Below are positions 6,514 through 63,870 of a stretch of 64,000 nt of DNA, piece after piece (the stretch's first letter is position 1; each line of letters begins with the position of its first letter). The translations under genes and the position numbers were made by a program. The stretch lies in contig NC_073414.1 in assembly GCF_028641065.1 (NCBI RefSeq), positions 620,001 through 684,000 on the forward strand. The letters run 5' to 3'. Below the pieces are notes generated by a model. That model searched no databases. It was not told the origin of the DNA and saw only the letters and a program-made list of their open reading frames with translations. The stretch comes from Leucoraja erinacea (Eukaryota).

Positions 6514-8186
6514 CAGTGCCCTCCATAATGTTTAGGACAAAGACCCATCATTTATTTATTTGCCTCTGTACTCCATAATTTGAAATTTGTAATAGAAAAA
6601 AATCACATGTCGTTAAAGTGCACATTGTCAGATTTTAATAAAGGGTATATTTATACATTTTGGTTTCACAATGTAGAAATTACAGCAGTGTTCATACATA
6701 GACCCCCCCCCCATTTCAGGGCACCATACTGTTTGGGAGACAACTACTTTCATTTACATGACATTGCTATGTTCAGTATTTTGTTGCATAACCTTTGCAT
6801 GCAATGACTGCTTGAAGTCTGCGATTCATGGACATCACCAGTTGCTGGGTGTCTTCTCTGGTGATGCTCTGCCAGGCTTATATTGCAGCCATCTTTAGTT
6901 AATGCTTGTTTTGGGGACTAGTCCCCTTCAGTTTTCTCTTCAGAATATAAAATGCATGCTCAGTTGGGTTCAGGTCAGGTGACTTGGCCACTCAAGAATT
7001 GACAATTTTTTAGCTTTGAAAAACTTCTTTGTTGCTATAGCAGTATGTTTGGGATCATTGTCTTGATGTAGAATGAACTGCCGGCCAATTAGTTGAGGCA
7101 TTTGTTTGAACTTGAGCAGATAGGATGTATCAATACACTTCACAATTCATTATGCTACTACCATCAGCAATTGTATCATAAATGAAGATGTGAGGCAGTA
7201 CCTTCGGCAGCCATACATGCCCAGGCCATAACACCCCCACCACAATGTTTCACAGATGAGGTGGTATGCTTTGGATCTTGGGCAGTTCCTTCTCGCCACC
7301 ATACTTTGTTCTTGTCATCACTCTAATATTGTTAATCTTAGTCTCATCTGTCCACAAGACCTTTTTCCAGAACTGTGGTTGTTCTTTTAAGTACTTCTTG
7401 GCAAACTGGCCATCCTATTCTTCTTGGTAACCTGGTCATCCTATTTTTGGAGCTAACCAGTGGTTTGCATCTTGCAGTGTAGCCTCTGTATTTCTGTTCA
7501 TGAAGTCTTCTGTGGACAGTGGTCATTGACAAATCCACACCTGATTCCTGAAGAGTGTTTCTGATCTGTTGGACAGGTGTTTGGGGATTTTTCCTTACTA
7601 TAGAAAAAATTATTCTGTCATTTGCTGTGGAGGTCTTCCTTGGCCTGCCAGTCCCTTTACGATTAGTAAGCTCACCAGTGCTCTCTTTCTTCTTAATGAT
7701 GTTCCAAACATTTGATTTTGTTTGGTAAGCATAAGGTTTGGCTGATGTCTCTAACAGTTTTATTCTTGTTTCTCAGCCTCATAATGGCTTCTTTGACTTT
7801 CATTGGCACAACTTTGGTCCTCATGTTGATAAACAGCAATAAAAGTTTCCAAATATGATGGAAAGACCAGAGGAAAGACTAGGTGCTGAGATCTCTCAGA
7901 TACCTGATTTAAAGAGGCATTTAAACACACCTGAGCAATTACAAATACCTGTGAAGCCATGTGTCCCAAACATTATGGTGCCCTGAAATGGGGGGGACTA
8001 TGTATAAACACTGCTGTAATTTCTACGTGGTGAAACTAAAATGTATAAAAACACCCTTTAATAAAATCTGACAATGTGCACTTTAACCACATGTGATTTT
8101 TTTTCTATTACAAATCTCAAATTGTAGAGTACAGAGGCAAATAAATAAACGATGGGTCTTTGTCCCAAACATTATGAAAGGCACTG
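6514..8186 (-). mobile_element. Tc1/mariner DNA transposon, near full length, decayed, in a SAMD4B intron
   Basis: TA flanks at 6512-6513 and 8187-8188; ~225-bp terminal inverted repeats (CAGTGCCCTCCATAATGTTT...) with an internal repeat of the terminal motif; disrupted transposase ~7824-6773 with WTDETK, QDNDPKH and SPDLNPTEH motifs. Confidence 0.95.
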
Positions 8187-10790
8187 TATTTAAGGTCATG
8201 GACCTGTTGTTTTGCAAATCAACAGTTAAACTGAGCATTGACATTTCTCTAACTAATTCAATGAAAGTGTCAGGATTTAGTTGTAACGCTCCTTAAGCAA
8301 AGTGCTGAATTGATTGACTCTAAACAAAGATGCGCCAACAGAAATCGAATCCATCCCACTGCATGACCCAGTTCCCCCATACTCCCATGGTATTAAGGCA
8401 TAAATACTCTTTAAACACAACCCAAGGACACGTATTATGAATGTACTATTTTGCTTTTAGTCTGTCCCCCACCAGCGAACTCAAAATGACACAAAGATAG
8501 ATGTTTTTGAAAGTTCAGTGATAATTTTGCTTACTTTAGTACAAGGAGTATACTTAGCACAAAGAAAACATTTAATCAGTTTTAATACTGATTTACTCTG
8601 TTTTAGTTTCCATTTGCTCTCCAGGCTGGTATTGGAACTCTGACAGGATTGTGTTGTTGCTTCTGTCTGGCAGGCCTGTGGTAGCTGGTGTCTGAGTCGT
8701 CTGTGCGGTTACTGTCTGGTTTCTCCTGTGTGTGGGGATGCAGTGAAGTTGAAACTGGACAGTGATTGGGCTCAATCATTCGGTTATCATTCTCTGGTGC
8801 AAGACTGATGGTCAGCCTCTCAATTTGATGCTTGTAGCAGACATCATGTTAACATAATTCACATTAAATATCAATGTATTGCAGCCATTATGTTTTTGGT
8901 AAATTGGAAAATGGTTTCTTGTCTTCAAATATTTCCGTGCTGTTTATTAAAACGATACGATACGATAAAACTTTATTCATTCCCGGAGGGAAATTGGTCT
9001 GCCGATTGTCACAACACCCAAGGTACACTAACTTGAAAGTAAAAAGAAAAAGACAAGCGTCTGTTGGCTGGCTGCCGTGTGCACAATGCCTTCACCGGAA
9101 CGAACAAACAAACAAACACAGGCTTATCCCCTGCGCAAAGGATTCTAAAACTAGAGTGCCCTCCCCCACGCCGGGTCCCCATTGTTCTTCGGCGGTTCCC
9201 CCCCCCCCCCCCCCCCCCCCCCGCGCTCATTGTCTGTGAGGCCTCACCGCCCAGCTTCACTGCGGTCGGTCCACAGGGAGGCCTGTGGGGCGAGTCGGGT
9301 CGACCGGGGGTGCATTCCGGTCTTCCATCGTTGTCCTATTTGGCGGTGGCACGGTTGTTTGGTGGGTGGATCGGGCCCGTGCGGCTCCCGGGGTCACTCC
9401 CCGGGAAAAAAACATGATTATGGACTAAGGGCATAATAAAACATTAAGATGTATAAAGGAGACAAAGTTAACTTCAGGCAGCATTTCTCTGAAACAGGAA
9501 GTTGACCCTGATCTGAGATTGTACATCACCCAACCGCTATCCTTGAACAATGAGTGGATCTTTCTGTTGTTGCAAAGTGTCTCCTAACGTGGCAAAGTGA
9601 AAGCACACTGCCCTTTTACCTGCTAACGTGGGTCTGTATTTCTAGGTAGCTTTTTCCTCCTCTGCCCCTATTACGCAGGCTGCTCAATCACCTTGCTGCC
9701 CAGCTGCTCAATCACCGTTCTGTGCCTCCTGGGTGATCCCAGATGTTGATGTTGGAAGCTCCTGCTTGACTTTGAGTGTGTGGATGCTATGGAGTGAGCG
9801 TGGACAAGACTCTTTGTCTTGTTGGTTGTGGTTTTTTGGGTTCTGGGGGTATGTCACTGAGACCATGCAGTATGGTATTGAGTGGCTGGAGGTATTAGGT
9901 ACCAACAGCATTGTGCTGGGGTGTCGTTGGTTGTGTGCGGGGATACTGATCATGGGTGGATGTGCTCCCCACTTGAAGTGTGCAGCTTTGGGAATAAATC
10001 TTCCTGCATTAACTTGACATCTCGCACTGAATAATCAGGATCAGTGCAGAGAGGCAAATGATTAGTGCCTTGAACTGTCCTTAAAATGTGATGCTGGTTG
10101 CTAAAGTTCTGGTGTTGATCACGAGTTAGTCAAATAGTATGATGGGGACTGTTGGTTTGTGTAAATTAGTTTGATCGTTACTTCCATCATCTGTCCTGTC
10201 TTTATTTGTGCTTTTGTAACTGCTTTGATTTTGTTGGAAACCCTGGATCGTTGATGAAGCAGAAGTTATTGCCGACTTGCTTTAAATCCACATTACTTAT
10301 GTTGACATTTCCTTGTTTACCTAAGTACTATATGCTATACTGTGTTTCTCAAACCAGGAAAGGTAGTCATTCAGACCATGTCCTTGCTGAACTGAAAGAA
10401 CCATCCAGTCTGACCCCAACAGCTTGCCTCTTAGGCTGTAGCTTGCAGGCTGCACCACATCAGTGACATGTCCAAACCATTTTAAGTAGGGTGGGTTTTG
10501 CAACCTTCTGCCACCCTCAAATTATCAAATCCAGTCCCACTGGATCATTGATCAAAATAGTTATTGTCTATATCTATTCATATGTCCTTTTTTGTTTGAA
10601 AATTGCTATTTGTTGTTTCAAAGTAACGTCCAACCTATCCAGCCATTCCTCATAGTTAAAATTCTCTGGCTTTGGCAATATTGTCACTTGTTTTTGAATC
10701 TGTAGATCAAATTGTATCAGGTCTGTGGAAAATGCCTTCATTTGTTTTCCCCACTTTCTCTTGACTCTTGGTTTCTCATTTTTATCATAG

Positions 10791-10900
10791 ATGTGCCCAC
10801 TTGGTTAAAAAGCCTTCGGCTACACAAATATGCATCGCTCTTCTCGCAGCTAACATATGAAGAGATGATGACCCTGACCGAACATCAGCTGGAGTCTCAG
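10791..10900 (+). CDS. SAMD4B: SAMD4B exon, SAM domain N-part
   Basis: atcatag| ... CAG|gtttg; (D)[36 protein letters not shown]; phase fits the previous exon. Confidence 0.95.
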
Positions 10901-11969
10901 GTTTGTTGGTGAATGTGGAAATTCATGCTCTCCCTTTCAATAGGCTATCAAAACCATTTGCCTGTTGACTGTCCATGTTAAGTTTAATGGACTGCAGTGT
11001 ACACCTTGTGGTCAATACATGTTTTTTGTGTATATGTCATATTGCTAACGTTTCGATCATACGAGTCGGGAGCATTGCTCTTTATGTAATAGTATGTGCC
11101 AGTACGGTGCATCGACACCTCTTTATAAAAAATATACATATTTTGTTTCCAGCAATGCATTAATTGTACATACCAGCATATTTTGTCTGCCATAAAGGTC
11201 AGGCCAAAGGGGAATAATAATTGAATTCCAGATATGAACCTGGGGTACATATATGATATGATACATTCCAGAAGTTTGGGGTTTTTTTTAGGTTATATGT
11301 TGCTCTGTTTTTAACGTGGAAAAATCTCTTGTGTTTCAGTAATGTTTCATGCTGCTTTATTTCCCCCCTTTCTCACCAAAGGTATCATTGTGGGCGTAGT
11401 TCTACAGCTCTCCGTACATCAGTGCCCCTTCTTCTGTCAGTCCTAGGTATTCTGAGATTGATGGGGAGGGGTGCCAGAATGAGCTCATGGCTGGCTTTTA
11501 TCCAGGCTTGCCTCTAGTTTACTTTTCTCAGCCTCTGGAGTCAATGCTAACTCGCAGGACAATTCCAGTTCCACTCATTTTCCTTGTTACCAGTTGTCTC
11601 CACATTCTTTCCACACTTTTTCACACAGAGGGTGGTGGGTGTATGGAACAAGCTGCCAGAGGAGGTAGTTGAGGCTGGGACTATCACAATGTTTAAGAAC
11701 CAGTTAGACAGGTACATGGATAGGACAGGTTTGGATGGATATGGACCAAGCGCAGGCAGGTGGGACCATTGTAGCTGGGACATGTTGGCCGGTGTGGGTA
11801 AGATGGGCCACACAGACAACACTGGCGGTCAGGATTGACCCATGGTGTCTCCCAGTGGGCTAAGCATGGGATGGGTAGCAGGAAATCTACATTCTCTTCT
11901 TGTTTTCATCCTGGTCCTGTCTTTAATCCCTCTTTACTGCAACATCTCACTAAATGTGTTCTTCTGCAG

Positions 11970-40134: not shown

Positions 40135-40673
40135 TGACTTGTCTTGTCTTGACTTGTCTTGCCTTGACTTGTCTTGCCTTGCCTTGTCTTGTCTTNNNNN
40201 NNNNNNNNNNNNNNNNNNNNNNNNNNNNNNNNNNNNNNNNNNNNNNNNNNNNNNNNNNNNNNNNNNNNNNNNNNNNNNNNNNNNNNNNNNNNNNNNNNNN
40301 NNNNNNNNNNNNNNNNNNNNNNNNNNNNNNNNNNNNNNNNNNNNNNNNNNNNNNNNNNNNNNNNNNNNNNNNNNNNNNNNGTCTTGCCTTGCCTTGTCTT
40401 GTCTTGTCTTGTCTTGTTGTCTTGTCTTGTCTTGTCTTGTCTTGTCTTGCCTTGTCTTGCCTTGCCTTGTCTTGTCTTGTGCCTTGTCTTGCCTTGTCTT
40501 GCCTTGTCTTGTCTTGTCTTGTCTTGCCTTGTCTTGTCTTGTCTTGTCTTGCCTTGTCTTGCCTTGTCTTGTCTTGCCTTGTCTTGTCTTGTCTTGCCTT
40601 GTCTTGTCTTGTCTTGTCTTGCCTTGTCTTGTCTTGTCTTGTCTTGTCTTGCCTTGCCTTGCCTTGTCTTGTC
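40135..40673. repeat. (GTCTT/GCCTT)n pentanucleotide microsatellite with an internal gap
   Basis: Directly visible. Confidence 0.97.
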
Positions 40674-41304
40674 TGTGGTGCTTGTGTTCACTAGCTGTGT
40701 TCCCCCATCTTTATATCAACAGTGGTATTCTTCACCTTGTGCAATGTTGTACGTCTGATGAATGGGGGAAAGATGCAGATGGGGGGAGAGGGGAGGATGG
40801 TGGGAGTGAAGGTGAAGGGAGAGAAGGATGGTAAGAATGGGGAAGGGAGAAGGGGAGAGAGAATGAGGGAGGAGGAGGGGGGTGCTTGGAGCAAAAGGGA
40901 GGGGTGAATAGTGAGGGATGTGGAGAAGATGAAGCAGGGGATGAGGGAGAGGTGACTGTGGGGCCAGATGGCGAATGACGCAGGGAAATGGAGGATAAAT
41001 GGAATGGAATGAAGCAGATGAAGGGAATGGTCAAGTGGGAAGAAGGGAGTGAGAGAGGGGATGCAGGGAATGAGGAGGGGGGGGGATCGGGGGGCAGACA
41101 GAGGGATGGGGGCAAGAAGTAAATAGAGGAAATACGGGAGGGTTGGGGTGGGTGTATGTCACGATGCACTCACCCTCACCGTCTCCATGATGCTGGGGTG
41201 ATGAGAGCTGATGGGAGAGGGGGTGTAGGTGGGGCTAGGGGTCGGGGTTTGGGGTACAGTGCATTAATCCTGTCCCTGTCTCAGTGATACTGGTCGCTGG
41301 GGCT

Positions 41305-41344
<40 letters not shown>

Positions 41345-41470
41345 GAGAGAGAGGATTAGGGGTTAGGGGTTGGGAGGTCGGGGTTTGGGGTATGATGCAC
41401 TCACCCTGTCCCTGACCCTGACCTTGTCTCTCCCTCAGTGATTACTGCCGCTGGGGGCTGAGGAGGGGCC

Positions 41471-41725
41471 ATGCCGCCCATCAGTGAGGTGTGGAGATAC
41501 GTAACGCAGAGAGATGATCGAACCCTGGAATGCACCATGTGTGGCTGGCAGCTAGCCCACCCTTGCAGCACTGAAGTACTGCGCCTACACCTGCAAAACC
41601 ACCACCGCATCCACTTCACCACAGAGACCGGGCAGGGGGAACCGCAGGGAACCGACAGCACCGGAGACGAGACTCAGTGTGAGGAGGAACAGGGTCACAG
41701 CGACATGCTGGACATAGACAGCCCC
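41471..41725 (+). CDS. ZBED-family gene, first coding exon, BED zinc finger 1
   Basis: Acceptor tccctcag| at 41438, gccATG Kozak; SEVWRY...CTMC...LRLHLQNHHRI fits the BED pattern; CCC|gtgag phase-0 donor. Confidence 0.75.
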
Positions 41726-42840
41726 GTGAGTCCACGTGTGTACGGAAACAGGCCACTCGGCCCAAATCACCCATACTAACTTTCCACACCTGCCTACGGT
41801 TGGCCCATAGCCCTCTAAACATGTCCTATCCATGAACCTCTCCAAATATCTTTCAATGTTGTTATAGTCCCAGCCTCAACTATCTCCTCTGGCAGCGCGT
41901 TCCATACACCAACCACCTCTGTGTGAAAAAGTTACCCCTCAGGTTCCTATTAAATCTTTTCCCCTTCACCTTAAACCTATGTCCTCTGGTTCTTGATTCC
42001 CCTATCCTGGGTATCCTTGTACATTCACCCTATCTATTCCCATCGTGATTTTATACACCTCTATAAGATCACCCCTCACCCTCCTGCGCTCCAAGGAATA
42101 AAGTCCTAGCCTGCGCTCCAAGGAATAAAGTCCTAGCCTGCTCAACCTCTCCCTGTACCTCAGACCCTCAACTCCTGGCAACATCCTCGTAAACCTCTGC
42201 TATCAAAGCGAGTCCCATTTGCTCACATTCCTCTAAATATTTCCTATCCATTCACCTGTCTAAATGTCTCCTAAACATTGTTATTGTATCTGCCGCAATT
42301 ACTTCCCTTTGGCAGCTCATTCCATACACCCACCATCTTCTGTGCAACTAAGCACAAAGTATTGGAGGAGCTCAGCAGGTCAGGCAGCGTCTATGGAGGG
42401 AATGGACAGACATTTCTGGTCGGGACCCTCCATCAGACTGGTGGGGGGGGGGGGGGGGGAGTGGGAAAGCGGACAAGAGAGATGGTGAGTGTACAGAGGG
42501 GGGGGGGGAGCAGGGTGACTGTGAAGGGGGAGGGTGGGCGAGGTGTATGCACGGGAGGGGGAGGGGGGGGGACAGAGAGAGTGGTCAGTGGGGGTACAAC
42601 TAGATGTCAGTGTTCCAGCTGTTGGACTGTCAGCCAGCCACGCGAAGTGCTGACATTAGGCCCCTGACTCACACCCAATCCCCAATATCGCTGCCGGTGG
42701 TATCTGACCCCTCCAGTCTGTAGACTCCCCGCACCCCCCCGCCACTCCCCTCCCCTGGGAGAGGGGGTCCACATGGTTCCCTTCCTCCCCACCGCAGGGC
42801 AGGTGAGCATCATGTAACGTCTCCTCTTTGCTCTGCACAG

Positions 42841-42976
42841 GAGCCCCACAGGTCGCCGGGCAGCAGCAGCAGCAGCAGGCGCATGTCGGAGATGCTGCGG
42901 GACTGCGCTGCACAGCTCGAGGACGAGGAGGACGAGGGGCCAGGAGATGGAGACCCTCACCCCACCCTGACTGAAG
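42841..42976 (+). CDS. ZBED-family gene, second coding exon (acidic linker)
   Basis: ctctttgctctgcacag| acceptor; EPHRSPGSSSSSRRMSEMLRDCAAQLEDEEDEGPG... is in frame with the first exon; G|gtacc donor. Confidence 0.65.
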
Positions 42977-43293
42977 GTACCGCACCCCACAACACACTTA
43001 CCACCACCCCCCTGTTCTGGACTCCCCCAACATGGGGAACATTTTTCCTCCATCTACCCTGTCCAATCCTCTAAGAATTTTATATGTTTCCATAAGATTC
43101 CATTTTATACTAAATTCCAGTGAATACAAGCCCAGTCGACCCATTCTTTCATCACATGTCAGTCCTGCCATCCCGGGAATTAACTTGGTGAACCTACTCT
43201 GCGCTCCCTCCATAGCAAGAATTGTACCCCTGGGTCACTATATCATTGTAGCCCCATCTTGTATCTGTATCACTCTACCCATATATACTGTAG

Positions 43294-43531
43294 CCCTCTC
43301 CTCACGTCTCCTCCTCTCCTCTCCTCACGTCTCCTCCTCTCCTCTCCTCACTTCTCCTCTCCTCTCTACTCTCCTCCCATCTCCTCTCCTCTCCTCTCTT
43401 CTCTCCTCTCCTCACTTTTCCTCCCCTCTCCTCTCCTCCCCCTCTACTCCCATATCCTCTCCTCTCCTCTCCTCCTCTATTCACCTCACCTCCCCTCTCC
43501 TCTCCACTCTTCTCCTCTCCTCTCCTCCCAT
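43294..43531. repeat. (CTCCT)n-type pyrimidine microsatellite before the gap, in the ZBED intron
   Basis: Directly visible. Confidence 0.95.
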
Positions 43532-43668
43532 NNNNNNNNNNNNNNNNNNNNNNNNNNNNNNNNNNNNNNNNNNNNNNNNNNNNNNNNNNNNNNNNNNNNN
43601 NNNNNNNNNNNNNNNNNNNNNNNNNNNNNNNNNNNNNNNNNNNNNNNNNNNNNNNNNNNNNNNNNNNN

Positions 43669-45565
43669 GCTGTCCACGCTGCTTCGCTCCTGTGGGCCGG
43701 CCCGCAGTCCCCGGGGAAGCGCCGAGCTGACCTACAAGCGGCGGCTGGCGGGCGGGAGCCCGGACCGGGCTGAGACATGGGATTTCTTCAAGAAGCTGAA
43801 CGAGCGGTGCGTCGAGTGCAGCCTCTGCCGCAAACAGCTCTGCTTCCACGCCAGCACGGCCAGTCTCCGGGAGCATCTCCGCCGCAAACACCGGCTCGGG
43901 GAAGCGCAGCCCCGCCACGGCGCCGACGATGCCTCGTCCGGATCCGAGTCGGTGGGGCCGGAGCCCGAGGTGAAGAGGAACCGAGCGGTGGGGGAGAGAG
44001 TGGGGGTCCCGGAGTGTCCGGAGTGTCCGGAGCGGCGGCGGGACGTGCTGGACCGGCTACTGCTGGGCCTGGTTTACCGGGACCTGCAGCCGCTTGGCCT
44101 CGGGAAACAGACCGGCTTCAAGCGGCTGCTTGGTTACTTGGAGCCGAGTTACCGACCCCCGACAGCGGCTCAGTTATCGGCCGCTCTGCGCCGCCTCTAC
44201 CTGCGGGCTCGCCAACATCTGGCGGCACAGCTGCGCTCGGTACCGGCGCTGGCGTTATCCACTCACAGCTGGAGCGGCCCCGGCGGTCGGCCCTTCCTCA
44301 CTGTGCTAGCCCACTACACGGACGCCCGTTGGGCCACGGTGCGCTGCGCTCTCCGGACCGGCCGAGCTCCCGGTCCCGACCTCCTGCTCTCTGCCCTCGC
44401 CGACTACCAGCTCCCCGCCGCTGCCGTCATCTGTGTGGTGGAGGATAGCCCGCGGGCCCGGGCCGAGTGGCCGCCATACAGCCTCCCGTGCGCCCGCCGC
44501 GCCCTCGACCTCTGTCTCCGACAAACACTGCGACTCGAGGCTCTACAACCGGCACTCGGAGCAGCTCGCCGCCTCGCCGCGCAACTGCAGCTCGGCCCGG
44601 ACTTCGGACACGGGCTGGAGCCGCTGGACATCGGTCTCCTCCAGGCTGGACAGTGGCCGGAGCCGCTGGACACCGGTCTGTTCCCGGCCGGACAGTGGCC
44701 GGAGGCGGACACTGGCCCGCACTGGGACAACACGCTACAGATGTGCGAGCGGCTGCTGCGGATGCGGCCGGCACTGGACAGCGAGCCCGCACTTTCCCCG
44801 CAACACTGGCAGCTTTTGCGGGACCTGGTGTCCGTCCTGCAGCCGCTGCGGCTCGGCCTGGCCTTCCTGTCCGAGCCCCACAACGCTTCAGTGTCGGCGC
44901 TGCTGCCCTGCCTACATGGAGTGGCCGCCGCGCTGGCCCAGTGTCCGCTGGAGGTGGCGAGCCCGGCCAGGGCAGCTGGGGCCCGGCTCCGACACTTGTT
45001 GTTGCGCCGCTGGGAACTGGAGAGCGGCCCCGATGTGGCCACAGGTCCCGCTGGTCTGGCCGCTATCGCCTCCTTCCTCGACCCGCGCTTCAAGGACCTG
45101 CGTTTCCTCGACGCCCGCACCCGGGACCACATCCACCGCAAGGTGCGGGCACTGCTGGCGGCCACTCCGCCCGAACCCCGGCCTGCTAGCCCGTGCCCGC
45201 CGCCGCTCGGCCCGTCCCCAGGGGCTGCTAGCCCGGGCCCGCCCCCGGCCGCCCTGCCCAGCGACTATGACCTGTTGTTCGGCGCGGAGCCGGCGGGCGC
45301 GATGCCCGAGTCTCGGCTGCAGTTGGACGGGTACTTGTCCGAGCCGCTCCGCAAACGCGACTCCGACCCATTCCACTGGTGGCGGGACAACGGGCATCGC
45401 TTCCCGGCGCTCGCCCGCCTCGCCCGCCGCTTCCTGCCCATCCCCGCCGCCGCCGGGCCGCTCTCTCCCCGCCACAACTCCACGCCCGCCGGCGGCACCG
45501 ACACTGATGTGGAGTACATCGTGTTCCTTCACACAAACGTCCCGTACATCGACCTCCTCCAGTGA
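43669..45565 (+). CDS. ZBED-family gene, large terminal exon: BED finger 2, hAT transposase-like core and hATC dimerisation domain; 5' boundary hidden in N-gap
   Basis: ~630 open codons: WDFF...CSLC...LREHLRRKH (BED), RDLQP...GFKRLL..LEPSY, ASFLDPRFK, DPFHWWRDNGHRFPALARLARRFLPIPA; AATAAA at 45769. Confidence 0.92.
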
Positions 45566-48451
45566 CGCCAAACCGAGTGGCCCTTCGGCCCGTCCACTCG
45601 CTGCTCTAACCCCACGCTCCCAGTACAGCAGCGCCAGTCTCGACAGAAGAGACACAAGCGACTGATTGGCCCAATCCTGCTCATTATGTGATCCTAATCC
45701 TAATCATGTTCTTTGAACGAAAGCTATCCGTGCACCGTGGAATTTGACAGATTCTATTTATTCACATAAATAAACAAGGGCAGGACTTGAACAGTAAATG
45801 ATAGAGTACAGGGGGAAAGAACACAAAGCCTGGAGGTGCAGGCACATCATTCCTTGACGGTGGTCTGAGGTGGACAACCTTCTTTAATCCATCCAACACA
45901 TGAACTCAAGCCAATCCAACATCACCTCCCAGAATAAACCCGTGCTGAATCTCCCTGATCAACCAATGCCTTTCTTCGTGGCCTCTGCATTGATTCCAGC
46001 AATTTTTTTCACCCTGGAGCAGATGACCAGCTTGTAGGTACTTGCATTCCTTCAGTCAGTGACAGCGCTCCTCAGTGGGCAGAGTTACTCATTGCTGTAA
46101 CACTGAAACAAAAACTGAATCCACATTTCATAGTCTCGTGTACCGAGGTACAGTGAAAAGTTTTTGTTGTGTGCTAACCAGTCAGCGGAAAGACAATACG
46201 TGGGCCATTTATAGTGTATAGATGCATGATAAGGGAATAACGTTTAGTGCAAAGTTAAGCCAGCAAAGTCCGATCAAGGATAGTCCAAGGGTCATCAATG
46301 AGGTAGAAAGTAGTTCATTGCTCTCTGGTTAAGGGTAGGATTATTCAGTTGCCTGATAACAGCTGGGAAGAAACTGTCCCTGATGTAATGGCTGCTTGTT
46401 CTAATGTTGTGATATCCTCTGTACCTAATGAAACAGTAGGCTGTGATTATTGCTGACAATCTAGGGAGGCAAACAAGACCTGGGTTTAATCTCTGCTCTC
46501 TCAGCATGAAGCTGAATCATCAACCTACACCAAGTCTGTGGAGCAGGACTTGACTCCATGACCTCCTGACCCGCCAGAGGCAGGCCTTGGCTCAATCCGT
46601 GGGCTGACGTTTCTTCCCAGTTGTTATTTTCAAGAGAGAATTAGATAAGGCTCTTAAAGATAGCGGTCAGGGGATAGGGGATAGGGGAGAAGGCAGGAAA
46701 GGGGTACTGATTGGGGATGATCACATTGAATGGCGGTGCTGGCTCGAAGTGCCGAATGGCCTACTCCTGCACCTATTGTCTATTTGGCAACTGAACTATC
46801 CTACCACAACCAGAGAGCAGTCCTGGACTACTATCTACCTCTATGATGATCTTCGGACTATCTTTGACGGGGAACCGAACAAACGAGGCTAAGGGCGTCC
46901 TCATCCACGGCCACAGGAGAATATTCCTGACAATCAGATGCTAAATATTTGTATTGGTTTGTTATTGGTTTATTATTATCATGTGTATGGAGATACTGTG
47001 AAAAGCTTTTGTTTGTATGCTAATTGATTAAATCAGATCATACAATGCATGAGTCCAATCATGGCAAGCTACGACATCTAGTCGAAGGGCCGAATGGCCT
47101 TCTCTAGCACCTGTTTTCTATGTTTCTAGTGCAAAGAGAACTTTAGCAGAGTGCAGAATCTACTTTTGCAGTGTTACAAGCCTAATGTCCACGACGAGGT
47201 AGGATGGAAGAACGGGACTGTTCGTAGTCTGATAACAGTGGGTAAGAACCTGGTCCTGTAGCTGGCAAGCTTTTCCATCTTCTGCCCGACAGAAAAGGGG
47301 AGAAGAGGAATGAACAAGGTGAAAGAAGGTCCTTGATTATGTTGGCTGCTCTCCTGAGGCAGCGTGAAGTGTAGACGCAATCAATGGCGGGGAGTCCAGT
47401 CTGTGTGATAGACTGGGCTACATCCACGTCTCTGCAATTTCTTGCGGTCTTGAGCAGAGCTGTTCCCAAACCACGAATCCCAATTGGATATTCTTGCAGT
47501 TGTTTTGATTTTTATTCAAATGAATTAACTTTCGTTTTAAAATAACCGCAGATGTTATGAATCTAAAAATACATCTTGGAAACACAGCAGATCAGGCAGC
47601 ATCTGTGTAGAGAGAAACAGAGGTTGTAGATCCTCCAGAACCAGGTGTCAATCTCTCCCAGATTTGATGAGTGATCATTGAGCTGAAAACCAAGCAGATT
47701 CCATCTTCACAGATGCTGCCTGGACCACTGAGTGATCTTGTGTTTGCTGGATGGACAACAATGGACAATTGTTTCAGGATCAACATGCTTCCTGCTAACA
47801 GCAACATGTTGGTTTAAGCTCCAATCTGGTGGTCTCCCTGCCCTGTGTGTGCGAATGATCTGTCCCCACACCCTCAGTGGAGCAGTGATGGACCGAGCCG
47901 TTCCCTGACCGGTTGAATGGCGGAGCAGACTCCAAGGGCCGAATGGCCTCGTTCTGTCCCTATACCTTATAGTCTTGCCTGACCTATGTATCCCGTATCC
48001 TTCTGTCAGTTAATGAGCACGAGGAAGGGTGTCTACATGTGGTGACGACACCAGTATCTCATCACAAACACAGCGGTTTCTGTGCTGGAAGTTGGAACTG
48101 CTCCCGCCGTTAGGTATTAGACGGCCTTGGTTATTCCCAATAAACAGACGGCAGTGTGGATAAATGATACATTTTCTATTTATTTCCTGTACTGATAAAA
48201 CCACTGCCTCATAGAAACAGGTGTAAAACAACTAATTGTTAAGGGAACAAACCATCCATGTCACATCTTCAGGATGCCCAGAGCGTGTTACATGTGTGGT
48301 CACCATCATGGGACAGGCAGGACAGCGACGTCCCCCAACTCATGCAAAACTGAATTCCATAAAACTTCAATCCAACGACATGACCCATTGAAGATCAGTC
48401 CTGGTGTTTATAGAAACAAAGAACTGCAGATTTTTTTTTAGGCCCCATTCG

Positions 48452-48825
48452 GTCATGGCTGACCATGGGTGTCTCCTGGGTTGGAGGACGCCAGTACGTG
48501 ACTTTGTTTAACGTGGGGAGACTGGTGTACAGACAGCCACCACACACACGGTCCTTGACAGATCTGGGTTAGGATCCAGTGGCTTGGAGTCCAAGACGAA
48601 CGGAGACCCCTTTCATCCGCCTTCCCAGCCGTTGTGGCGCTCCACTAAGGTCAGCCATCGTCCTCCACCTGTTCCACCATTGAGGTCTTGGTTGGATCAC
48701 TCTTTGTCAGAGACCTCCCCCTCAATCTTACCGCCATGGGTGACCCTACCAGGACCATAGCTCCAGACGGCATCGCTCTCAGGATCTCAGGACCACACAA
48801 GCTTCTCCATCACGGACAAGGTGAC
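48452..48825 (-). mobile_element. Possible RTE-clade LINE 5' UTR fragment
   Basis: ccatgggtgaccctaccagg...gctctcaggatctcaggaccacacaagcttctcca resembles recalled RTE-type 5' regions; no ORF support. Confidence 0.4.
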
Positions 48826-49430
48826 CCACACACACACACACTGACCCCACAGACACACTGACCCCACACACACACTGACCCCACACAGACACTGACCCNN
48901 NNNNNNNNNNNNNNNNNNNNNNNNNNNNNNNNNNNNNNNNNNNNNNNNNNNNNNNNNNNNNNNNNNNNNNNNNNNNNNNNNNNNNNNNNNNNNNNNNNNN
49001 NNNNNNNNNNNNNNNNNNNNNNNNNNNNNNNNNNNNNNNNNNNNNNNNNNNNNNNNNNNNNNNNNNNNNNNNNNNNNNNNNNNNNNNNNNNNNNNNNNNN
49101 NNNNNNNNNNNNNNNNNNNNNNNNNNNNNNNNNNNNNNNNNNNNNNNNNNNNNNNNNNNNNNNNNNNNNNNNNNNNNNNNNNNNNNNNNNNNNNNNNNNN
49201 NNNNNNNNNNNNNNNNNNNNNNNNNNNNNNNNNNNNNNNNNNNNNNNNNNNNNNNNNNNNNNNNNNNNNNNNNNNNNNNNNNNNNNNNNNNNACCCACAC
49301 ACACACTGACCCCACACAGACACTGACCCCACACAGACACTGACCCCACACAGACACTGACCCACACACACTGACCCCACACACACACACTGACCCACAC
49401 ACACTGACCCCACACACACACACTGACCCC
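48822..49430. repeat. Minisatellite CACTGACCCC(ACAC/AGAC)n upstream of ERH, with gaps
   Basis: Directly visible ~15-20-bp variable units. Confidence 0.95.
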
Positions 49431-49629
49431 NNNNNNNNNNNNNNNNNNNNNNNNNNNNNNNNNNNNNNNNNNNNNNNNNNNNNNNNNNNNNNNNNNNNNN
49501 NNNNNNNNNNNNNNNNNNNNNNNNNNNNNNNNNNNNNNNNNNNNNNNNNNNNNNNNNNNNNNNNNNNNNNNNNNNNNNNNNNNNNNNNNNNAATATTTAA
49601 ACACAATCGGACATTTTTATTCTACAGGA

Positions 49630-49745
49630 TTTTTTTGGCGCGAAGTTTCTACAACAAAGGGGAAACTTTCAGCCATTCACAGGCTTGCGTGACGTCACCG
49701 CGCTTCCGGGTGGAAGGTCGCGCCTCGCCATTTCCGGTTTCCATT
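49630..49745 (+). promoter_or_regulatory. ERH core promoter with E2F, CRE/ATF, ETS and YY1-type motifs
   Basis: TTTTGGCGCGAA at ~49633-49644, GTGACGTCAC at 49689-49698, CTTCCGG at ~49703, CGCCATTT at ~49726 overlapping TTCCGG; CpG-rich, TATA-less, ending ~55 nt before the ATG. Confidence 0.7.
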
Positions 49746-49800
49746 TCACCCCCGGCGGCCCCGAGACACGACAAACGGCGAAACACGCGGCGGCGACAAC

Positions 49801-49803
49801 ATG
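49801..49803 (+). CDS. ERH: ERH exon 1 coding part (ATG only)
   Basis: aacATG|gtgggt; phase 0 joins to TCT CAC ACG of exon 2, the known ERH structure. Confidence 0.85.
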
Positions 49804-50099
49804 GTGGGTGTGGGGGGGTGTGGGGGTGGTGTAGTGGTGTAGTGTAGAGTAGTGGGGGTGGTGGTGTATGGTGTGTGTGTGGGGGGGGGGGGTAGTGTAG
49901 TGGTGTAGTGTGTGTTAGTGTAGGGGGGGGTGGTGGAGGGGCGGGGGGGAGGAGGGGGGGGGGGCCGCCGGGCCGGTGGGTGTGTGTGTCTGTGGGGGGG
50001 GGGGGAGCCGGTGGGGGTGGGGCGTGTGTGGGGGGGGCACGGTGTGGTGACGATGACGCGATGGCGCCGCCGCTAACTCTCTCCCTCCTCCATCTCCAG

Positions 50100-50187
50100 T
50101 CTCACACGATCCTCCTGGTGCAACCGACCAAGCGGCCCGAGGGCCGGACCTACGCAGACTACGAGTCTGTCAACGAATGCATGGAAG
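50100..50187 (+). CDS. ERH: ERH exon 2
   Basis: tctccag|; [29 protein letters not shown]; G|gtacc. Confidence 0.96.
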
Positions 50188-50304
50188 GTACCGCAGGGCC
50201 TTTGTTCATCTGTCTCTCTCTGCCTCTCTCTGCAGGATTAGTAACTGAGGCCGTGGGTCACTGCACCGTGTGTGTTCACCCTTCACTGGGGCCCGGCTGC
50301 TTTA

Positions 50305-50590
50305 TAAGGATGAGGGAGAAATCCTTTAAAACCGAGATGAGAAGAACTTTTTTCACACAGAGAGTGGTGAATCTCTGGAACTCTCTGCCACAGAGAGTAG
50401 TCGAGGCCAGTTCATTGGCTATATTTAAGAGGGAGTTAGATGTGGCCCTTGTGGCTAAGGGGATCAGGGGGTATGGAGAGAAGGCAGGTGCGGGATACTG
50501 AGTTGGATGATCAGCCATGATCATATTGAATGGCGGTGCAGGCTCGAAGGGCCGAATGGCCTACTCCTGCACCTAATTTCTATGTTTCTA
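50305..50590 (+). mobile_element. CR1-clade LINE 3' end, little decayed, in ERH intron 2
   Basis: [28 protein letters not shown]...FKRELD, then the tail ggctcgaagggccgaatggcctactcctg and (tttctatg)n. Other CR1 3' pieces at ~1-335, 11625-11810, 33700-34020, 37445-37780, 38995-39295, 41750-42340, 43010-43220, 46620-46785, 50710-51295, 56840-57180. Confidence 0.88.
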
Positions 50591-51885
50591 TACTTTCACC
50601 TCCACAACTCCCCAACTCCTGCACTGTTCACCTGCGGCTCCAACAGCGAATCCAGTCAGAGCTGGATCTCCTCTAGTCAGCGGCACACAGTCCATTTACC
50701 CAAGATGAGGCATAGATCGGGTAGATGGACATAGTCGCTTGTCCAGAGTAGGGAAACGAGAACCAGAGGACATAGGTTTAAGGTGAGGGTGGTGGGGGTG
50801 GGAGAAGGTTTAATGGGAACCCGAGGGGTAACATGCACATGCATGGAATGAGCTGCCAGGGAAGGTTGTTGAGGTGGGTACCATCGCAACTTTGAAGAAA
50901 TATTTAGACCGGTACATAGGACAGGTTTGGAGTGATATGGGCCAAACATGGGCAGGTGGGACTAGGGTAGATGGGACATGTTGGTTGGTGTGGGCAAGTT
51001 GGGCTGAAGGACCTGTATCAAGGTCGGGGAATGAAGAGCCAGAGGCCGTAGGTTTAATGGGAATCTGAGGACAAACTTTTCACACAGAGGGTGGTGGGTG
51101 TATGGAACGAGCTGCCAGAGGAGGTAGTTCAGGCAGGTACCACAACATTTAAAAGACATTTGGACAGGTACATGGATAGGACAGGTTGAAAGGGATATGG
51201 GCAAACAGGCAGGTGGGACCAGTGTAGATGTGGCAACGTAGTCGGCATGGAGTAGTTGGGCTGAAGGGCCTGTTTCCGTGCTGTATGATCCTATGTCGCT
51301 CCTACCTGTGAACAAGTGTAATACTCCCTGCCCACACCGTGTACGATTTAATGCAAAATTTGCAGACACAAAGAACTGCAAATACTGGAACCAAGCAAAA
51401 CACAAAGTGCTGGAGGAACTCAACGGGTTGGGCAGCATTTGGACAGTGTTATGGGTTGGTTTCCTTAACGTCGTCTGTCCATTTCCTTCCACAGATGCTG
51501 CCTGGCCCGCTGTGATCCTCCCGCACTTTGTGTTAACGTGTAACTTGTTTGATAATGCTGTTTGTTTCCCCTTTGGAATAGATGGAATTGTCAGGTGTGG
51601 TTTTAGGGAAGCGGTTAGGGTTAGGCTCCTAATTGCTGCAGCAGCAGCCCAGAACTGTTACATCACAGGCTCCATGCAATATGTAAACTACAAAGTACGT
51701 TTAAAATGCCATGAAACACACAGTGCTGGAGTAACTCAGCGGGTCTGGCAGCATCTGGGACCCATGTTCTCCAGAGATGCTGCATGTCCTGATTTACTCC
51801 AGCACTCTGTGTCTATGTTTGGTATTTGAACCAGCATCTGCAGTTGCTCGTTACATTTAAAACATTTGAATCTGCTCCTCCCCAG

Positions 51886-52006
51886 GTGTCTGTAAAATGT
51901 TTGAAGAGCATTTGAAGAGGATGAACCCGAACAGTCCGTCCATCACGTATGACATCAGCCAACTCTTTGACTTCATCGATGACCTTGCTGATCTGAGTTG
52001 CCTTGT
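51886..52006 (+). CDS. ERH: ERH exon 3
   Basis: ccccag|; (G)[39 protein letters not shown](V); GT|gtaag. Confidence 0.96.
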
Positions 52007-53063
52007 GTAAGTGTTGCCTTCAGTTCCCAGACAGAGCAACAGGGGAAATTGACCCAGCCATTCCAGCCTGTTTCACCTGCACTTCAAGTCCTTCACGCTA
52101 CCTTGTTAACCCTCAGCTTCCTCATCCAAGGGAAGTTTAATTTAGAGATACAGCGTGGAAACAAGTCCTTCAGCCCACTGAGTCCACAACGACCAGCAAT
52201 CGCCTCTACATTCATTCTTTTCTACACACATTGAGGTCCATGAACGATCAAGGTGGCTTATGGGGTCAAGGGCAGGTCATGACTAGCTCTTACCCAGCTC
52301 TTATAAATCTAGAAGACTCGAGCAGTCGGGACTGCAGAATGCCTCAGCTCAGAGACCTGGGTTCAATCATGACCTCGGGTGCTGTCTGTGTGAAGTCAGT
52401 CATAGTGATACAGCGTGGAAACAGGCCCTTCGAGCCCAACTTGCCCACACCGGCATACAATGTCCCAGCTACACTAGTCCCACTTGCCTGCGCTTGGTCC
52501 ATATCCCTCCAAACCTTTCATATCCATGTACCTGTCTGTTTCTTATACGATGGGATAGTCCCAGCACAACTATCTCTGGGGTTTGGATGCTCTGGTTTCC
52601 TCCCACATCCCAAAGACTTGCAGGTTTGTAGGTTACTTGGCCCTCTGTAAATTGCCGACTGTGCAGGGAGTGGATGAGAAAATGGGATAATATAGAACTA
52701 GTGTGAACGGGTGATTTCTGGTCGACATGGACTTGGTTCATTAAGTGTACCCTGCTATTTAATCATAGTTGATCTATCTTTGCCCTCTGTGCTTGTGCTC
52801 TTATCATATCCGGACATTGCATGGAGTGAATTAAGTTAGGCTAAAGTCTTGCCTGTGATTGTGGGGATGTGGGGAAGCTTAGTTTATTCAACACCTCTGG
52901 CTGCGTAGGATTCCCAGTGAGGGCTGTGGTGGACGCAGGAGACCACAGATGCTGGAATCTTAAACTCAGCGGGTCTGGGTCAAAGGGTCCCAACCTGAAA
53001 CGTGAGTTGTGGCAGTTGGATCATTGAAGGTCCTCGACACTGACGGCACTGTTTTTTCTCCAG

Positions 53064-62639: not shown

Positions 62640-63870
62640 AGTTCAGCGGCCTAAAGGCATGATGATAAAAACTGTTCTTAAGTCTAGTGGTACATGCAGC
62701 CATGCATGCTCCTGTATTGTCTGCCTGACGGTAACAAGGAGAACAGTCTGCGTGCTGGGTGGCTGTGGCCCTTGATGATGCTGTGTGCCTTCCGCAGGCA
62801 CCACCTGTGAAAAATGTCCTGAATGGCCAGGAGACAGTTGCCAATGATGTGCTGTGCCGCCTTCACCACTCCCTGTAGTGATTTGTTGCTGTGGGCAGAA
62901 CAGTTCCCGTACCAGACTGTGATGCAGCCCATCAGCAGGCTCTCGATGGTGCAACTGTAGAAGTTTGTGAGGATGCTGGCGTTCATGCCAAACTTCCTCA
63001 GTCTTCTCAGGAAAAAGAGCCGCTGGCGGGCTTTCTTAGTTACTGTGTCCAGGTGCAGTGTCGTCAGTGATGTGCACACCAAGGAACTTGAAGCTGCTGA
63101 CCCTTTCAACCTCAGCATCACCGATGTGGATGGGGAGGTGACCACTCCCCTGCTGTCTCCTGTTGTCCACAATCATCTCTTTAGTTTTACAGACATTGAG
63201 GGAGAGGATATTTTCCTGGCAACAGCTGTTTAGTTCCTTTACCTCCTCTCTATAGGCCGTCTCATTATTGTCTGTGATGAGGCCCAGGAAGGTCGTGTTG
63301 ATGTTGGAGCTGTGCTTAGCAGTACAGTCGTGCGTGAACAGGGAGTACAGGTGAGGACAGAGCACACAGCCCTGTGGTGTGCCTGTGTTGAGGATCAGTG
63401 AGGAAGAGGTGTGGCTGCGAATTCTCACCACCTGGGGCCTGCCCGTCAGGAGGTCGAATATCCAGTCCAAGATTAAGGAGCTTGGGGACGAGTTTTGAGG
63501 GAATGATAGTGTTGAATGCCGAGCTGTAGTCAATGAAGAGCATTCTCACATATGTATTCCCTTTGTCCAGGTGGATGACCGCAGTGTGAGTTGCCATGGC
63601 GATGGCATCATCCGTGGCCCTGTTTGGTCTATACACAAACTGAAGAGGGCCCAAGGTGTCAGGGATAAAGGAGCAGATGTGCGTTTTGACTAGTCACTCG
63701 AAGCACTTCATGATGACTGATGTCAGTGCGACAGGACGGTAGTCATTTAAACAGGAGATTAATGGTTTATTTGGAACAGGAACAATGGTGGATGCTTTGA
63801 AGGGAGTGACTCAGGGGGAGGTTGAAGATGTTGGTGAACACCTCTGCCAGTTGATCAGCGCACGCCCAGA
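62640..63870 (-). mobile_element. Rex1/Babar-type LINE reverse transcriptase fragment, frameshifted
   Basis: [72 protein letters not shown] across three frames. Confidence 0.9.

What the first reader, a model, noticed from the sequence alone, without database searches (positions are those of the whole stretch)
41439..45774. Intron-containing domesticated hAT transposase with two BED fingers and a dismantled active site
Seen: three spliceable exons give BED1 - acidic linker - BED2 - hAT core - hATC domain in an intact, very GC-rich frame with a poly(A) signal and no visible TIRs. Seen: positions matching the catalytic machinery are altered. The first Asp motif (xTxDxW) reads LSTHSW, CxxH reads CARR, and the PAxSxxxERxFS motif reads PAAAGPLSPRHN with no Glu; only VVEDS keeps an Asp. 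Known: ZBED genes are exapted hAT transposases whose coding region is often a single exon. Inference: a host DNA-binding regulator, possibly the ZBEDX-type lineage of non-placental vertebrates or an undescribed paralogue, with an extra spliced BED finger.
Basis: partly seen in the sequence, partly recalled or inferred. Interest (0 to 1): 0.75.

Follow-up and report, generated by a model that had tools for sequence, protein, structure and literature searches.

The report
Skate copy of ancient tamed transposase
This is the skate copy of an old jawed-vertebrate gene (database name zbed4l2) descended from a hAT DNA transposon; it keeps two zinc fingers, has lost most of the residues needed to cut DNA, and likely works as a DNA-binding gene regulator, though no function has been tested.

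Summary
The gene is real. Its three exons match an existing RefSeq protein letter for letter, and the large exon is transcribed at low level on the sense strand; its splice joints were not seen in reads. It is the skate member of an orthogroup named zbed4l2 / si:dkeyp-117b8.4, found from chimaera to birds, with no named mammalian hit. The group forms one fully supported clade that follows vertebrate phylogeny. It is not Xenopus ZBEDX: the sequence differs by eye and the neighbours differ.

The skate lacks equivalents of Hermes D180, H268 and E572, but this is a derived state: coelacanth and caecilians keep D-D-H-E, and most bony vertebrates keep acidic residues. The upstream BED exon is shared by cartilaginous fishes. 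Dissimilar extra fingers appear in several teleost lineages.

It is most likely a non-catalytic, self-associating DNA-binding regulator (inferred). It may be a hAT domestication missing from the published ZBED tree; ZBED1/4/6/X could not be put in my tree. This scan found the same gene earlier in a ray (e1-7814591).

The parts
41439..41725 (+). First coding exon: 5' untranslated part, ATG at 41471, extra BED finger (BED1, about 41483-41608) and start of an acidic linker
   Evidence: Splice signals; Pfam zf-BED E 5.3e-4, just under cut-off; equals residues 1-85 of P0001; homologous finger in sharks and rays, degenerate in chimaera
42841..42976 (+). Second coding exon, acidic/serine-rich linker, phase 0 in, phase 1 out
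   Evidence: AG/GT; equals residues 86-130 of P0001; aligns to shark and ray proteins
43532..43668 (.). Assembly gap hiding the acceptor and first 4 nt of the large exon
   Evidence: N run; P0001 has two residues between the readable pieces
43669..45774 (+). Large last exon: hAT transposase-derived frame to TGA 45563-45565, 3' UTR, AATAAA 45769-45774
   Evidence: low, strand-specific sense RNA depth in runs X16 and X19
43772..43894 (+). Core BED finger (BED2), the most conserved region of the family
   Evidence: Pfam E 4.4e-6; 85% skate to horn shark, 100% turtle to axolotl
44264..44266 (+). His331 at the Hermes D180 position
   Evidence: His in all batoid entries and chimaera, Asp in sharks
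44444..44446 (+). Asp391, retained Hermes D248 equivalent
   Evidence: Asp in 131 of 142
44489..44500 (+). CxxH motif read as CARR (His lost)
44605..44704 (+). Skate-specific in-frame 42-nt tandem repeat (2.4 copies) at the start of the insertion domain; expanded further in Rhinoraja
45323..45451 (+). hATC dimerisation region with the WW pair and Leu at +11
   Evidence: Pfam E 1.4e-8; WW in 140 of 142 family entries
45443..45478 (+). Motif that should hold the Hermes E572 equivalent; no Glu, with a short deletion

Best explanation
This is the skate orthologue of zbed4l2 (si:dkeyp-117b8.4), a hAT transposase inferred to have been domesticated once before cartilaginous and bony vertebrates split, and it likely works as a non-catalytic, self-associating, sequence-specific DNA-binding regulator. 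Shown: a three-exon intact frame, a transposase fold, loss of three of four catalytic positions, a species-tree-like clade, strongest conservation in the core BED finger, and low sense transcription of the large exon. Inferred: the protein multimerises through hATC, which presents several BED fingers to repeated DNA sites as in Hermes and human ZBED1. The upstream exon added a second finger in the ancestor of cartilaginous fishes, raising valency or changing specificity. The RNase H core persists as a scaffold. The extreme skate divergence likely reflects relaxed constraint on the core plus regional GC bias, not a new function.
For: P0001 equals the three exons. Relatives occur in rays, sharks, chimaera, bichir, paddlefish, gar, teleosts, coelacanth, amphibians, reptiles and birds. 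Family clade support: 100 in FastTree (35 of 144 rows) and 100/100 in IQ-TREE (22 of 39 rows), with actinopterygian and sarcopterygian subclades at 97 or more. Profile scores of near-full-length hits fall from 553 to 392 bits between family and outsiders. Hermes is the top sequence and fold match. BED2 identity exceeds the RNase H region in every cross-order pair tested, e.g. 85 vs 38% skate to horn shark and 100 vs 62% turtle to axolotl; CCHH is kept in 134 of 142 and the hATC WW pair in 140 of 142. W590, W591 and L601 are needed for ZBED1 self-association (PMC7471704, passages). DDE and CxxH are needed for hAT catalysis (PMC4763223, passages). Sense RNA depth is 0.3-3.9 in X16 and X19, with polarity set by ERH and MRPS12.
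Against: No binding, localisation or knock-out data. Splice joints were not seen in reads. Copy number in this genome and dN/dS were not tested. Run X12 shows almost no depth over three of four exon bins and X10 at most 0.22. The chondrichthyan subclade has only 86/55 support. Skate changes 28 of 142 highly conserved columns, against 16 for Mobula and 0-9 for five of six non-batoid entries tested (chimaera 15). The Rhinoraja record is flagged low quality and the Pristis model leaves the family alignment near its end. The AlphaFold model is weak (mean pLDDT 53.9, pTM 0.43).
Confidence: 0.75

Rival explanations
1. The gene arose by duplication from the ZBED1 or the ZBED4/6/X lineage inside a vertebrate genome, not by its own domestication, as its database names suggest.
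For: Database names 'ZBED1-like' and 'zbed4l2'. Hayward 2013 report expansion of one ZBED clade by duplication.
Against: None of the fetched proteins, including the best 150 profile hits, carries the short BED motifs of ZBED4, ZBED6, ZBEDX or ZBED2. The single ZBED1-motif match (P0277) has a complete transposase-like catalytic set and falls among the outsiders. The nearest outsiders are mostly intact transposase-like proteins: 75 of 98 have D-D-H-E. This is a rank argument, not a tree; ZBED1/4/6/X were not available as rows.
Confidence: 0.2
2. In skates the gene is decaying towards a pseudogene; the lost catalytic residues and coding repeats are drift.
For: Longest branch in the family (0.34 + 0.66); 28 of 142 conserved columns changed; two in-frame repeat insertions; GARP 0.38 vs 0.21 in sharks; low RNA depth.
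Against: Full-length proteins in three skate genera. Leucoraja to Rhinoraja identity is 98% in BED2 and 89% in the RNase H region, against 63-73% in linkers. The repeats keep the frame.
Confidence: 0.1
3. It is the skate orthologue of Xenopus ZBEDX / C7orf29.
For: Two BED fingers; His at the first Asp position is also seen in frog ZBEDX (read by eye); found outside placental mammals.
Against: The frog ZBEDX rows of Hayward Fig. S2 differ by eye from frog family members, which have one annotated finger of another type. ZBEDX lies upstream of LRRC61; here the neighbours are SAMD4-like, MRPS12 and ERH.
Confidence: 0.03
4. The skate protein keeps some nuclease or recombinase activity, as yeast Kat1 does.
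For: D248, W182, W319 and C265 equivalents are kept; coelacanth and caecilian orthologues keep D-D-H-E.
Against: The skate lacks D180, H268 and E572 equivalents; each DDE mutation abolishes Kat1 activity.
Confidence: 0.03
5. It is an active or recent hAT element that happens to be spliced to host exons.
For: One TIR/duplication-like pair brackets the frame.
Against: That hit is at chance level (4 of 20 shuffles) and its left arm lies inside the coding frame. Catalytic residues are lost and the tree follows host phylogeny.
Confidence: 0.01

Closest known systems
zbed4l2 / si:dkeyp-117b8.4 orthogroup (database names; RefSeq XP_055519509.1 for this protein)
   Same: Same clade as Danio aesculapii si:dkeyp-117b8.4; NCBI names the Rhinoraja protein zbed4l2; carp and Astyanax hits are named 'BED-type containing 4-like 2'.
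   Different: Skate has the chondrichthyan upstream finger, the most eroded catalytic site, and coding repeats. No paper holds either name in the library searched.
ZBED1 / hDREF
   Same: BED + hAT core + hATC architecture; hATC WW and +11 hydrophobic residue kept.
   Different: Different BED motif, two fingers, locus not near DHRSX in this window. The 'E3 SUMO ligase' label is transferred by similarity and untested.
Xenopus ZBEDX, C7orf29 and ZBED6 (Hayward 2013, PMC3606216)
   Same: Domesticated Ac-family transposase with two BED fingers.
   Different: Different sequence (by eye) and neighbours. Hayward's extra fingers arise by internal duplication and the paper reports the DDE triad as conserved across ZBEDs; here the extra finger sits on its own exon and the triad is lost.
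Zebrafish zgc:161969, also called ZBEDX (Zeng 2023, PMC9859435)
   Same: Fish BED-hAT protein with an intron.
   Different: 630 aa, one finger at residues 17-59, little synteny beyond a few fishes; the Danio member of this family is 948 aa with another N-terminus.
Hermes transposase
   Same: Top sequence (E 5.6e-19) and fold (E 8.9e-8) match.
   Different: D180, H268 and E572 equivalents lost; no credible TIRs; spliced host exons.
PGBD5 (PMC3902484; search listing only)
   Same: Precedent for an ancient, intron-containing domesticated transposase.
   Different: piggyBac superfamily; present in humans.

Membership tests
Domesticated hAT gene (ZBED in the broad sense) | BED zinc finger | tested here: met
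   (BED2 above cut-off, BED1 just under); ligands conserved
Domesticated hAT gene (ZBED in the broad sense) | hAT catalytic, insertion and dimerisation domains | tested here: met
Domesticated hAT gene (ZBED in the broad sense) | No TIRs or target-site duplication | tested here: met
   one chance-level hit
Domesticated hAT gene (ZBED in the broad sense) | Vertical descent across species | tested here: met
Domesticated hAT gene (ZBED in the broad sense) | Single copy in the genome | tested here: inconclusive
   No genome held; Leucoraja appears once among protein hits
Domesticated hAT gene (ZBED in the broad sense) | Purifying selection (dN/dS) | not testable with these tools
   No orthologous coding DNA; protein-level proxy
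Domesticated hAT gene (ZBED in the broad sense) | Transcribed and spliced | tested here: inconclusive
   Sense depth on the large exon in 2 of 4 runs; joints not among displayed rows
zbed4l2 / si:dkeyp-117b8.4 orthogroup | One clade with the named fish gene | tested here: met
   (P0126 in tree; P0133 and P0140 aligned only)
zbed4l2 / si:dkeyp-117b8.4 orthogroup | Shared synteny with fish and tetrapods | not testable with these tools
   No eukaryote genomes held
Xenopus ZBEDX / C7orf29 | Two BED fingers | tested here: met
Xenopus ZBEDX / C7orf29 | Next to LRRC61 | tested here: not met
   Neighbours SAMD4-like, MRPS12, ERH; only stop-free stretches of 55 aa or more in 64 kb were scanned
Xenopus ZBEDX / C7orf29 | Sequence of the ZBEDX lineage | tested here: not met
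   Motif search; by-eye reading of Fig. S2 rows
Xenopus ZBEDX / C7orf29 | Tree placement with ZBED6/C7orf29 | not testable with these tools
   Those sequences were not among any tool's results
ZBED1 / hDREF | ZBED1 BED motif, single finger, DHRSX locus | tested here: not met
ZBED1 / hDREF | SUMO E3 ligase activity | not testable with these tools
   Name transferred by similarity
Active hAT transposon | DDE triad and CxxH | tested here: not met
Active hAT transposon | TIRs with 8-bp duplication | tested here: not met

The most novel reading that the evidence does not exclude
zbed4l2 is a third, independent hAT domestication in the jawed-vertebrate ancestor, missed by the published ZBED tree because mammals lost it. 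It kept a complete catalytic set in coelacanth and caecilians and shed it step by step elsewhere. It gained a second BED finger at least three separate times (cartilaginous fishes, cypriniforms, salmon/pike group), so one gene records repeated zinc-finger exon capture and staged loss of catalysis.
Probability: 0.4. Interest if true: 0.55.

Novelty: new member of a known kind. Interest (0 to 1): 0.35.

Why it matters
The skate gene itself is already annotated, and domesticated hAT genes are a known class, so this is no new kind of system. Its value lies at family level. It is an uncharacterised, probable transcription regulator whose core finger is identical from axolotl to birds, with no named mammalian relative. 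It offers a natural series from a complete catalytic site (coelacanth, caecilians) to a dead one (skates), which makes testable the open question raised by Hayward 2013 of why ZBED genes keep their DDE residues. Zebrafish carry the gene, so binding and knock-out tests are within reach.

Tried and rejected
Own-genome search for copy number: no genome held. Run search listed no RNA holder (no evidence either way).

The AlphaFold model was too weak for active-site geometry. The ESM Atlas gave only generic BED/hAT clusters. The BED-finger tree had 47 columns and could not resolve the source of BED1: its best match to a core finger (102) equals its best match to an outsider (104).

The TIR/duplication-like pair 43692/45597 was rejected as chance. 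The lamprey BED-hAT protein P0164 was rejected as an orthologue, since it groups with a wrasse hAT protein (99/98). No GTRAG-type donor was found at the CpG island 39560-40120. No complex prediction was run, since a homodimer would pass by likeness to Hermes.

Literature searches found no paper on this gene. The library lacks most subscription papers, and the supplement of the transposase-capture preprint was not seen.
Full report
Observation. Exon 1 runs from an acceptor at 41438 to a donor at 41726, with ATG at 41471 and 255 coding bases. Exon 2 is 42841-42976 (136 bases). The large frame is open from 43670 to TGA at 45563-45565, followed by AATAAA at 45769. The last acceptor lies in an N gap (43532-43668). 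A RefSeq protein named 'E3 SUMO-protein ligase ZBED1 [Leucoraja erinacea]' (P0001, 763 aa) equals the three translated pieces with two residues between exons 2 and 3, as the phase requires. Pfam finds BED2 (E 4.4e-6), hATC (E 1.4e-8) and BED1 (E 5.3e-4, just under the cut-off). A profile of 15 relatives matches Hermes (E 5.6e-19). It places His331 on D180, Asp391 on D248 and Arg409 on H268, with no Glu at E572; W182, C265 and W319 equivalents remain. A low-confidence model (pLDDT 53.9) still finds Hermes first (E 8.9e-8). A scan for TIRs with an 8-bp duplication gave one weak pair, matched by 4 of 20 shuffles.

Expression. Four RNA runs with the species label of the best holders were laid on 36000-52500. 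In two stranded runs the four bins over the large exon show 0.3-3.9 depth on the sense side and 0-0.16 on the other. Polarity is set by ERH splice joints and the MRPS12 exon. The last bin reaches about 140 bases past the poly(A) signal. The other two runs show little (X12 only in the last bin, X10 at most 0.22). This gene's joints were not among the 15 displayed (3148 hidden), so splicing rests on splice signals, phase, RefSeq models in three skate genera, and shark and ray proteins that align across both junctions.

What it is. A bird relative as query gave 119 hits at E 1e-30 or better: birds, crocodilian, turtles, tuatara, squamates, all three amphibian orders, coelacanth, bichir, paddlefish, gar, teleosts, sharks and this skate. 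Fish hits are named si:dkeyp-117b8.4 or 'BED-type containing 4-like 2', and NCBI names the Rhinoraja protein zbed4l2. No named hit is a mammal. The 10 unnamed hits are nearest to birds, lizards, frogs or fishes at 77-100%. One divergent unnamed 305-aa fragment (P0207) could not be placed. The search scored only 8000 candidates, so loss in mammals is likely, not shown; no spiny-rayed fish was named either. The family is one clade in FastTree (35 of 144 rows, support 100) and IQ-TREE (22 of 39 rows, 100/100). Inside it, ray-finned and lobe-finned groups follow the species tree, and the cartilaginous group is weakly supported (86/55). A lamprey BED-hAT protein falls outside. The window neighbours are a SAMD4-like SAM exon (10706-10909), MRPS12 head-to-head upstream, and ERH downstream. 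That this resembles human 19q13 is recalled, not tested.

Catalytic site across the family (142 entries, isoforms included, P0032 left out; the last position was counted from a motif and is unassigned in 10). D180 column: E 109, D 19, H 9. D248: D 131. H268: H 41, R 56, E 21. E572: D 54, E 38, T 11. Exact D-D-E occurs in 4 of 142 (two caecilians, coelacanth, paddlefish), three of them with the CxxH His; a newt entry has D-D-H with the last position unassigned. Among near-full-length outsiders, 75 of 98 have D-D-H-E. So the ancestor probably had a whole site. Most bony vertebrates keep acidic residues, sharks lost the His and the Glu, and batoids also replaced the first Asp. The skate branch is the longest, with Gly/Ala/Arg/Pro at 0.38 against 0.21 in sharks and GC3 at 0.82. 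The neighbouring MRPS12 frame is similar (0.78), which points to a regional bias.

Zinc fingers. BED2 is the most conserved region: 85% skate to horn shark, 100% turtle to axolotl, against 38% and 62% for the RNase H part. Twenty-nine family entries have two pattern-matched fingers. The extra fingers fall into five types: cartilaginous fishes, cypriniforms, salmon/pike group, Myxocyprinus and Denticeps. Scores within a type are mostly 131-261 (the degenerate chimaera finger 77-100); between types they are 27-92, no better than to unrelated transposases. Separate gains are the simpler reading. An old shared finger that diverged is not excluded, and the two single-species types may be annotation fusions. 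The source of the cartilaginous finger is unresolved.

Mechanism. Hermes multimerises to gather BED fingers on repeated sites (PMC10368747, passages). Human ZBED1 needs W590, W591 and L601 of hATC for self-association, and the N-terminal part of hATC for DNA binding and nuclear accumulation (PMC7471704, passages); the WW pair is kept in 140 of 142 entries, with Leu or Val at +11 in 139. DDE and CxxH are required for cutting and hairpin formation in Kat1 and Hermes (PMC4763223, passages). I infer a non-catalytic, multimeric, sequence-specific DNA-binding regulator. Targets, and whether it activates or represses, are unknown.

Comparison with known genes. Hayward 2013 (PMC3606216; main text parts 1-3 of 4, Fig. 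S4 text, Fig. S2 part 1 of 22 and 30 rows) describe two domestications, ZBEDX upstream of LRRC61, and a conserved DDE triad. None of their 75 rows shows this family's BED start by eye, and frog ZBEDX differs from frog members of this family. Short BED motifs of ZBED2, 4, 6 and X match none of the fetched proteins; the ZBED1 motif matches one outsider. ZBED1/4/6/X were not in my trees, so independent origin is a rank argument. Zebrafish zgc:161969 (PMC9859435, parts 1-2 of 5) is another gene. The transposase-capture preprint (10.1101/2020.05.07.082677, passages) does not mention ZBED in its main text; its supplement was not seen. Searches for zbed4l2 and dkeyp-117b8.4 found 0 papers, and seven other searches found no study of the gene.

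Verdict. Observation confirmed and interpretation partly supported. It is an annotated but unstudied member of a known class. Interest 0.35.

Noticed in passing
P0032 (turtle protein): A Pelodiscus 'KDM5A isoform X4' model joins the N-terminal part of the histone demethylase to a complete BED-hAT protein that groups with a Carettochelys BED-hAT protein, outside this family. Possible host-transposase fusion; KDM5 is not mentioned in the main text of the transposase-capture preprint.
   Followed up: partly
P0164, P0322 (lamprey proteins): A BED-hAT protein nearly identical in Petromyzon and Lampetra, with Asp at the last catalytic position; a candidate separate domestication in jawless fishes, where Hayward 2013 found no ZBED.
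   Followed up: partly
P0126, P0121, P0119, P0145: Teleost orthologues carry extra N-terminal BED fingers of four types unlike the cartilaginous one.
   Followed up: partly
window 44605-44704 and 45180-45259: Two separate in-frame repeats with 42-nt spacing inside the coding exon; both are longer in Rhinoraja.
   Followed up: partly
window 41240-41314 and 41376-41468: Local duplicate of the acceptor region of exon 1, about 136-154 nt upstream, which could be an alternative acceptor.
   Followed up: no
window 36280-36729 (-) and about 39600-39950: MRPS12-like exon on the minus strand and a GC/CpG-rich stretch that may be a shared head-to-head promoter; the non-coding first exon of the BED gene was not located.
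   Followed up: partly
window 49801-52000 (+): ERH gene with read-supported joints 49802>50099 and 50185>51884.
   Followed up: yes
window 10706-10909 (+): SAM-domain exon of a Smaug/SAMD4-type gene (SAMD4B by recall).
   Followed up: partly
window 7347-7772 (-) and 62687-63693 (-): Tc1-type transposase fragment and LINE reverse-transcriptase fragments.
   Followed up: no
P0207: Unnamed, divergent 305-aa family fragment with only weak preference for birds; it bears on whether any mammal keeps the gene.
   Followed up: partly
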